DNA of 64,000 nt from Balanoglossus misakiensis. Taxonomy: Eukaryota; Animalia; Hemichordata. The notes under the pieces were generated by a model, which worked only from the letters and a program-made list of their open reading frames with translations, was not told where the DNA came from and ran no database searches. Positions 47,886-48,804 of this stretch are shown here, in pieces. Position numbers and translations under genes: made by a program. Position 1 is the stretch's first letter. Every line of letters starts with the position of its first letter. The stretch spans positions 3,836,507 through 3,900,506 of the forward strand of contig CM082598.2 of NCBI GenBank assembly GCA_040954595.2, in the 5' to 3' direction.

Positions 47886-48804
47886 CCCAAAACTGGAACA
47901 GAATGCGCTAGCTCTGATTGGTCAATCCGTTCCAATTTCGTTCGAATTTTAGTTTTGTCTGTGTACAGAGAAGATCAGGCGGGGTCCAAGGGGAGAAGTC
48001 AATCGCCCTAAAATTGGAACGGGATACGCTAGGGAACGGGATACGCTAGCTCTGATATGTCAATCAGTTCCAATTTCGTAGGTCATCAACTGGCCCAAAA
48101 TCACAGGCGTCTGTAAAGATACATGGTTAGTTTCGCGATCCCACTATCAGATTCGGAATTTCGGAGCTTTAATTCACTGGTCACATTTCTGAAATCAACA
48201 ACTGCCCCCGACGTTCCACTTTGAGAGAAAAAGGAAGGTATATGCGCATGCAGTGAATGGTAGTTGCGAACAGGGAGATCGCAATTTTTTCCCGCATTTT
48301 TTGGTCGATTGGGGAGTTATATACAATGAGGGCGTCGATCGATTTTGTGAGCATTGGGTATGCTTGGTGTGAAGTTTGAGACTCTGGAAATGCCAACGAC
48401 CACTTTATTTCGTCCCGAACATAGCATGGGCGGTCGTATGACGCGAAACCGGGAGATCGTTTACTTATTTATAGCCACCTTGCAAGAAAAGTATAAAAAA
48501 AATAACCAAGCATCTTTACAGACTAATGCGCGCCTCCTGTGTGTACCCCGCCTGATCTTCTCTGTACAAAACTGAAATTGGAACGAAATTGGAACGGATT
48601 GACCAATCAGCGCTAGCGTATCAATGTTCAATTTTGGGATGAATGAAATTGGAACATGCATGATTCATCCCAAAATTGGAACATGATACGCTAGCTCTGA
48701 TTGGTCAATCCGTTCCAATTTCGTTCCAATTTCAGTTTTGTACAGAGACTAAAATTGGAACGGATTGACCAATCAGAGCTAGCTTATCTCGTTCCAAATT
48801 TGGG
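47886..48804. repeat. Cluster of five direct/inverted copies of a ~100-bp unit with U6-like motifs (putative transposon ends)
   Basis: Copies at 47886-47988(+), 48006-48079(+), 48542-48638(-), 48669-48748(+), 48749-48804(-). Long hairpin at 48560-48748. Confidence 0.85.

What the first reader, a model, noticed from the sequence alone, without database searches (positions are those of the whole stretch)
47886..48804. Palindromic repeat cluster that mimics U6 snRNA, between an intact U6 gene and a Dada-like transposase: candidate ends of a U6-targeting DNA transposon
Seen: the ~100-bp unit reads CCCAAAATTGGAAC..GATAC-[~50 nt]-TACAGAGAAGATCAGGCGGGGT(A/C)CA. The U6 copy 3 kb upstream reads ACTAAAATTGGAACGATACAGAGAAGATTAGC. 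Exact shared words are ACTAAAATTGGAACG (48748-48762), CTAAAATTGGAACG (48008-48021) and TACAGAGAAGAT (47964-47975, inverted at 48555-48566), in U6 order. The two complete ends agree for 14 nt beyond CAGAGAAGA, end in CA and then diverge. The end at 48542 (TG...TCTTCTCTG) points toward the transposase relic ~1 kb away. Established: Dada is a DDE superfamily whose members insert into U6, U1 and tRNA genes. I recall Dada-U6 carrying short subterminal TCTTCTCTG/CAGAGAAGA repeats, which needs verifying. Inference: these are Dada-U6 termini with more extensive target mimicry. They could act as decoy targets, giving nested or stacked insertions outside real U6 genes.
Basis: partly seen in the sequence, partly recalled or inferred. 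Interest (0 to 1): 0.82.

Follow-up and report, generated by a model that had tools for sequence, protein, structure and literature searches.

The report
Decayed ends of U6-targeting transposon
The repeat cluster is five scrambled copies of what is most likely the front end of a dead Dada jumping gene, a known kind that inserts into U6 small-RNA genes; its U6-like words also occur in the ends of many relatives and likely are the enzyme's binding sites rather than a new decoy trick.

Summary
The word matches are real and beyond chance. The unit is the promoter-side (5') end of a Dada-U6-type DNA transposon: 14 nt, TCTTCTCTG, then AAATTGGAAC words in both orientations around CCAAT boxes. It occurs five times (87-99% alike), upstream of a broken Dada transposase; a second relic lies at 60.7-63.8 kb. 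Neither terminus abuts U6 or a GCGCAA duplication, and the U6 gene is unsplit, so these are off-target relics. The 'more extensive mimicry' is not special to this locus. GTTCCA/TGGAAC arrays sit in 8 of 23 published fish Dada-U6 5' ends, in 0 of 16 other Dada ends viewed, and in fetched relatives, one of them inserted in U6. Decoy geometry fails here. Tandem junctions in relatives have a simpler reading and are published for Dada-U1. One point I did not find in the two Dada papers: U6 carries this word twice, inverted and nearly symmetric about the insertion site. That suggests, untested, that the transposase reads ends and target with the same word. Verdict: new, dead member of a known family with a modest testable addition.

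The parts
44699..44805 (+). Intact U6 snRNA gene in an intron of an amino-acid-kinase-family gene; Dada-U6 target hexamer GCGCAA at 44763-44768 is unoccupied; inverted pair TGGAACG (U6 nt 32-38) / CGTTCCA (94-100) centred on nt 66
47682..47883 (-). Diverged duplicate of the 3' end (last codons, stop, 3' UTR) of the phospholipase A2 gene at 51919-52090; abuts the inner side of unit A
47884..47988 (-). Unit A: isolated 5' end of the element (terminus 47988, 9-bp motif 47966-47974), body deleted after 105 bp
47999..48133 (-). Unit E (47999-48079, with a 17-bp internal tandem duplication, no terminus) plus 48102-48133, an inverted partial copy of B's flank 48499-48541
48134..48498 (.). Spacer with pieces of other, more abundant repeats; not U6
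   Evidence: many contigs laid at 48168-48501
48542..48646 (+). Unit B: 5' terminus (TG), 14 nt, TCTTCTCTG (48556-48564), two tandem AAATTGGAACG, CCAAT box, inverted word
48663..48748 (-). Unit C: young inverted duplicate of B (84 of 85 aligned bases identical), lacks the terminus
48749..48830 (+). Unit D: direct copy of the inner part of the end, leading into the likely promoter
48831..49493 (+). 5' internal region of the element; candidate first exon ATG 48868 to donor AAG/GTAAG near 48905 (inferred); segments are collinear with a second copy in the same animal; no protein match found
   Evidence: (joints 48731>48934, 49047>49245, 49264>49330)
49494..51444 (+). Dada transposase relic 1: keeps the RGSTSLESFH (catalytic E) exon, triplicated, and the C-terminal zinc-finger region; lacks the part with the two D residues and DxxH; stops and frameshifts
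60667..63785 (-). Dada transposase relic 2, same family (80-92% DNA identity, 80% protein over 350 aligned positions); second-D motif deleted, DxxH reads ETWH; its 5' end is not in the window

Best explanation
The cluster is five locally rearranged copies of a sequence that is most likely the promoter-side end of a dead Dada-U6-type cut-and-paste transposon, and the U6-like words likely are binding sites that its transposase reads both on its own end and on the U6 gene. Shown: the end anatomy (TG terminus, 14 nt, TCTTCTCTG, tandem and inverted AAATTGGAAC words around CCAAT boxes); the two broken Dada transposase genes; the absence of a TSD or U6 half at either terminus; the same word arrays in relatives. 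[quoted passage not shown] Inferred: the transposase binds the 9-bp motif to set the cut 14 nt away and uses the TGGAAC-type words as further sites; U6 is a good target because it offers the 9-bp motif plus two inverted TGGAACG words about 30 bp either side of the site. Also inferred: the copies here landed off target 3-19 kb from a U6 gene (local hopping or one-ended transposition), and template switching then made the B-C-D direct/inverted/direct triplet and E.
For: End layout matches Dada-U6: 14-nt spacing in PMC3706591 Fig. S2; L006, a relative inserted in U6 with TTGCGC, starts TG, has 14 nt, TTTTCTCTG, then GTTCCAA twice with CCAAT boxes. L019 has motif, two TTGGAAC, CCAAT, inverted GTTCCAA as in unit B; L028 has tandem AAATTGGAAC upstream and a canonical 3' end with TTGCGC downstream of its transposase. 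In the 121-family fish dataset GTTCCAATTT occurs 7 times, all in Dada-U6 records: 6 within about 300 nt of a record end, 1 in a U6 half left in a record. By eye, 8 of 23 Dada-U6 records have two or more GTTCCA in the displayed first 200-280 nt against 0 of 16 non-U6 records viewed (16 of 98); non-U6 ends have the same word-CCAAT-inverted-word layout with other words. A diverged second end in the same animal has the same layout and is joined collinearly to 48934-49330, so the unit belongs to the element. The transposase piece has 520 homologues, many with DUF6729, and by eye matches a Dada-U6 record of the supplement at 40 of 50 residues. U6 inverted pair centred at nt 66, TSD 65-70.
Against: No copy of this family was seen inside U6, so its target is inferred from end motifs. 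The transposase tree backbone is unresolved (only relic2+P0061 supported, SH-aLRT 97.1; deeper nodes joining it to U6-linked loci 12.8-84.3), and the conserved peptide is as close to tRNA-Leu-type records (best hits 85%). The word is not fixed in the lineage: U6-inserted L072 repeats ATGAAAC, and some fish Dada-U6 repeat GTTTCA or GTTCTC, so an exact U6 match is not required. Word orientation and spacing differ from U6. Kinship alone could explain why the word is confined to Dada-U6. No binding data exist.
Confidence: 0.78

Rival explanations
1. A Dada-U6 derivative that has lost U6 specificity, possibly with A as a 3' end so that the family has about 100-bp terminal inverted repeats ending TG...CA.
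For: A and B are inverted, 94% alike over 95 aligned bases, and both are flanked by non-U6 DNA without GCGCAA. PMC3706591 says its Dada-U6 copies were never flanked by non-U6 sequence at both ends.
Against: A and B point away from each other with no body between them. The 48-bp repeat that seemed to tie A to the transposase's 3' side is host PLA2 sequence. Most known Dada-U6 3' ends shown end in CCT or CTT and lack the CCAAT/word array. The second end in the same animal is preceded by TTGCTGC, one base from the canonical TTGCGC.
Confidence: 0.1
2. One reading: the ends mimic U6 well enough to attract new insertions, and the cluster is a stack of such nested insertions.
For: A 5' end plus TSD does copy the U6 geometry (motif, 14 nt, hexamer). 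Tandem junctions (3' end, hexamer, next 5' end) occur in 1 of 80 fetched loci clearly (L028) and probably a second (L019). Unit A lies next to unit E and both relics are close together.
Against: In the window no terminus is followed by a hexamer plus another end or a U6-like flank. B, C, D and E are explained by local duplication, since E shares B's flank and C is 99% identical to B. Tandem junctions also arise without decoys, because the real U6 5' half and TSD stay intact after a first insertion; tandem Dada-U1 copies are published.
Confidence: 0.08
3. An unrelated MITE whose words match U6 by chance and that happens to lie near the transposase.
For: The unit is quasi-palindromic, and one 10-mer match alone occurs in about 2% of shuffles.
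Against: Two-word match in 0 of 5000 shuffles; 9-bp motif at the Dada-U6 distance from a TG terminus; same layout in U6-inserted L006; collinear link to the element's 5' region in a second copy.
Confidence: 0.04

Closest known systems
Dada-U6 families (Dada-U6_DR, _DPu, _CT, _CGi; Kojima and Jurka 2013, PMC3706591)
   Same: Intron-containing DDE transposase with the same conserved block; 9-bp subterminal motif TCTTCTCTG 14 nt from the terminus, shared with U6; TG start as in the Daphnia transposase-upstream end (read from Fig. S2).
   Different: No TSD, no split U6, only the 5' end present (five copies), transposases broken; both complete termini are flanked by non-U6 DNA.
Actinopterygian Dada-U6 families (Kojima 2022, PMC8869645, Dataset S1; e.g. 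Dada-U6_TrTi, _EtSp, _AcRu, _DaAe)
   Same: 5' ends carry repeated GTTCCA(A) words interleaved with CCAAT boxes just inside the 9-bp motif.
   Different: In those fish ends the words mostly point one way; here the two proximal words are inverted and match U6 over 10-12 nt. The paper's main text does not discuss end repeats.
Fetched metagenome-contig relatives L006, L019, L028
   Same: L006 is inserted in U6 with TTGCGC and has the same TG/14 nt/motif/word layout; L019 has the closest end architecture; L028 has the same AAATTGGAAC word.
   Different: Transposases are only about 50-58% identical to relic 2 (L028 lower); L028 and probably L019 are tandem insertions with the TSD kept.
Tandem Dada-U1A/U1B insertions (PMC3706591 Fig. 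S3)
   Same: Stacked Dada copies separated by the TSD, the outcome the decoy idea predicts.
   Different: Seen in relatives L028/L019, not in the window.

Membership tests
Dada superfamily | Dada-type DDE transposase (D, D, DxxH, E) | tested here: met
   Relics align to DUF6729 proteins over most of their length; E block intact in both, D/D/DxxH region deleted or mutated as expected of relics; same block read by eye in Dataset S1 records. No direct alignment to Repbase entries was possible.
Dada superfamily | C-terminal zinc-finger region and introns | tested here: met
   CSKC...QYFGN.YC-type region at 51256-51426 and 60807-61079; intron after FIPG as in fish records.
Dada superfamily | No long terminal inverted repeats | tested here: inconclusive
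   No 3' end of this family is in the window; A and B are best read as two 5' ends.
Dada-U6 | 9-bp subterminal motif TCTTCTCTG/CAGAGAAGA 14 nt from the terminus | tested here: met
   48556-48564 and 47966-47974; A and B agree at 13 of the 14 outer bases and then diverge.
Dada-U6 | Insertion inside U6 at nt 65-70 | tested here: not met
   For these two termini: flanks 8-9 of 37 and 12-13 of 45 identical to U6 halves; U6 at 44699 is unsplit. Other copies of the family could not be examined (no genome held).
Dada-U6 | 6-bp GCGCAA/GCGAAA target-site duplication | tested here: not met
   Flanking hexamers are CCTGTG and TCCCCT; no TTGCGC in 47000-52500. A second end in the same animal is preceded by TTGCTGC, near-canonical but unresolved.
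Dada-U6 | Transposase falls in the Dada-U6 clade | tested here: inconclusive
   Backbone unresolved and no target-labelled non-U6 references available.

The most novel reading that the evidence does not exclude
Dada-U6 finds U6 because U6 looks like a transposon end: the TGGAAC word that the element arrays in both orientations at its 5' end occurs in U6 as an inverted pair (nt 32-38 and 94-100) straddling the cut site, so one DNA-binding surface reads end and target. Orphan ends with a GCGCAA hexamer would then be real secondary targets, and changing the word-binding residues would retarget the element.
Probability: 0.3. Interest if true: 0.62.

Novelty: new member of a known kind. Interest (0 to 1): 0.33.

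Why it matters
As a locus it is a dead, rearranged copy of a described superfamily. What may be useful is the by-product: Dada 5' ends carry family-specific word arrays around CCAAT boxes, and in the U6 lineage the word matches a sequence placed symmetrically about the insertion site. How Dada recognises its target is stated as open in both Dada papers, which also propose it as a targeted-integration tool. The word gives a concrete, cheap hypothesis to test by binding and integration assays, and a way to guess the target of orphan Dada ends.

Tried and rejected
No genome is held, so the genome-wide search for copies was replaced by laying contigs of runs X1-X3 (one sample, one study, possibly the window's source). 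On 48510-48870, 12 (X1) and 3 (X2) contigs were laid. The 11 of 12 loose ends shown trace to A, E, one variant flank of B and one second end, and none reads into U6; this is not evidence of absence, because contigs resembling human DNA (U6 is nearly identical) are dropped without notice and only 30 loose letters are shown. No RNA holder listed. The 48-bp direct repeat flanking the whole block (47836-47883, 52043-52090) was considered as a long TSD or a 3' subterminal sequence and rejected: it is the end of a PLA2 gene. 48102-48541 was considered as a separate MITE; its arms continue the E/B inverted repeat, so I do not call it one. A partial resemblance of A's flank to U6 nt 49-64 (11 of 16 by eye) was rejected because the first part belongs to unit E. 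Viral contigs hold no relative; a junction pattern gave 1 match (L081) with no transposase or U6, taken as chance. ARAGORN found no tRNA in 40 of 80 loci (split tRNAs would be missed). Rfam was run on 20 of 80 loci. Trees: 20 of 103 rows dropped for under 60% coverage (timed out); FastTree on 83 rows and IQ-TREE on 37 (supports read from the unrooted file) did not resolve a U6 clade. 48830-49500 has no protein or locus match. The Fisher value of 0.012 for 8/23 versus 0/16 is not relied on: counts are by eye and families are related. Literature: 'Dada-U6' is in 3 papers of the library; two searches gave nothing relevant (listings only). The 2013 protein alignment (Dataset S1.fa) and the figures of both papers could not be read, and Repbase/Dfam were not available; end repeats may be noted there.

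Full report
Observation. The quoted words are at the stated places and U6 at 44699-44805 is full length and unsplit. Taking single units, B covers 24 and A 23 U6 positions with exact words of 10 nt or more. For each unit, 0 of 5000 shuffles of U6 and 0 of 5000 shuffles of the unit reach this, and only 4 of 596 other tiles of the window have any such word. The resemblance is real. It is two short words, not a collinear U6 copy: the two words nearest the 9-bp motif are inverted relative to U6, and the one in U6 order lies about 50 nt further in.

Anatomy. There are five copies of one sequence, 87-99% alike over their aligned parts: A (47884-47988, minus), E (47999-48079, minus), B (48542-48646, plus), C (48663-48748, minus), D (48749-48830, plus). 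B reads TG terminus, 14 nt, TCTTCTCTG, AAATTGGAACG twice, CCAAT box, inverted word. Only A and B keep the terminus; they agree at 13 of 14 outer bases. B-C-D is a direct/inverted/direct triplet, and E carries an inverted piece of B's flank, which points to local duplication (inference). The 48-bp repeat flanking the block is the duplicated end of a phospholipase A2 gene.

Transposase. 49494-51444 is a broken Dada-type gene: the 55-aa conserved piece has 520 homologues, many with DUF6729, and the same block can be read in Dada records of PMC8869645 Dataset S1 (40 of 50 residues identical to a Dada-U6 record by eye, but as close to tRNA-Leu-type records). It lacks the D/D/DxxH part. A second relic of the family lies at 60667-63785 on the minus strand. 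Contigs from one sample hold a diverged second end with the same layout, joined collinearly to 48934-49330. So the unit is the element's promoter-side end and not a stray MITE. That second end may be relic 2's, beyond the window edge (inference); it is preceded by TTGCTGC, one base off the canonical duplication.

Literature. I read parts 1-3 of 4 of PMC3706591 with Figs S2 and S3 as text, and parts 1-3 of 5 of PMC8869645 with passages of its supplement. The 2013 paper reports no TIRs, a 6-bp GCGCAA/GCGAAA duplication, the 9-bp motif shared with U6 at the same distance, a speculation that it serves target recognition, one-ended transposition and tandem Dada-U1 copies. The 2022 paper infers DNA-sequence recognition mainly on one side of the cut. 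Neither text that I read mentions further U6-like words; 'inverted repeat', 'tandem', 'mimic' and 'nested' have 0 hits in the 2022 main text. Only 3 papers in the library hold 'Dada-U6'.

The extra word is lineage-wide. GTTCCAATTT occurs 7 times in the 1.09-million-character supplement, all in Dada-U6 records: 6 near record ends and 1 in a leftover U6 half. By eye 8 of 23 Dada-U6 records show two or more GTTCCA in their displayed start, against 0 of 16 non-U6 records viewed (of 98). The non-U6 ends have the same word/CCAAT/inverted-word layout with other words. Among 80 fetched loci, 4 carry U6 pieces (L006, L072, L047, L077) and 4 have clustered TTGGAAC/GTTCCAA words (L006, L019, L028, L031; L006's counted pair includes the U6 half). 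L006 is inserted in U6 with TTGCGC and has B's layout; L019 and L028 have B's words. Against a strict role for the word: U6-inserted L072 repeats ATGAAAC, and several fish Dada-U6 repeat GTTTCA or GTTCTC.

Membership. The transposase and 9-bp motif tests are met. Insertion in U6 and the TSD are not met for the two termini here. The clade test is inconclusive. I therefore call it a Dada relic with Dada-U6-type ends lying off target, not a proven U6-inserted copy.

Mechanism. From the literature, Dada-U6 cuts and pastes into GCGCAA. I infer that the transposase sets its cut from the 9-bp motif and uses the TGGAAC-type words as added binding sites, as subterminal repeats serve in hAT and P elements (recalled knowledge), while the CCAAT boxes likely belong to its promoter. 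U6 holds TGGAACG at nt 32-38 and its inverse at 94-100, centred on nt 66, with the TSD at 65-70; this is its only 7-bp inverted pair at that spacing. The same word on end and target would explain the target choice, but this is untested and kinship could explain the distribution. Two relics within 19 kb of a U6 gene suggest local hopping or one-ended events near a true target; this cannot be tested without the genome.

Decoy idea. Not supported in the window. L028, and probably L019, show a 3' end, a hexamer and a next 5' end. That fits decoy use, but equally fits repeated insertion at the surviving U6 half, and tandems are already published for Dada-U1.

Earlier notes report other Dada-U6 copies as ordinary and one family outside RNA genes; they are unchecked leads. 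Verdict: new, dead member of a known kind; interest 0.33, carried by the testable shared-word hypothesis.

Noticed in passing
L047:4440-4554: A Dada 3' end of the kind seen in fish tRNA-targeting families (purine-poor tract ending CCCCAGCT, as in tL/tN/tR records) abuts a U6 5' half at the Dada-U6 site with a variant hexamer; possibly a target switch.
   Followed up: partly
L028:9055-9106 and L019:89-140: Tandem Dada junctions: 3' end, TTGCGC or CTGCGC, next 5' end with the 14-nt spacing on both sides.
   Followed up: partly
PMC8869645 Dataset S1: Most Dada 5' ends viewed carry a family-specific 6-11-nt word repeated around CCAAT boxes; whether the word matches each family's own target was not tested.
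   Followed up: partly
window 44599-44698: No obvious TATA box about 30 bp upstream of the U6 gene (by eye), so it may not be an expressed copy; a 130-bp tandem duplication (44811-45070) follows it directly.
   Followed up: no
window 47682-47883 and 51919-53423: Phospholipase A2 gene on the minus strand whose 3' end is duplicated on the other side of the Dada block; perhaps a tandem paralogue removed by the rearrangement.
   Followed up: partly
window 49567-49972 and 62419-62742: Both relics carry a tandem multiplication of the same catalytic-E exon, suggesting a shared rearranged ancestor or a fragile spot.
   Followed up: no
window 51784-51888 and 59147-59207: Short, very abundant repeat (by far the most contigs laid) just downstream of both relics; not identified.
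   Followed up: no
window 55929-58966: Tandem array of about 340-bp units with poly-G tracts.
   Followed up: no
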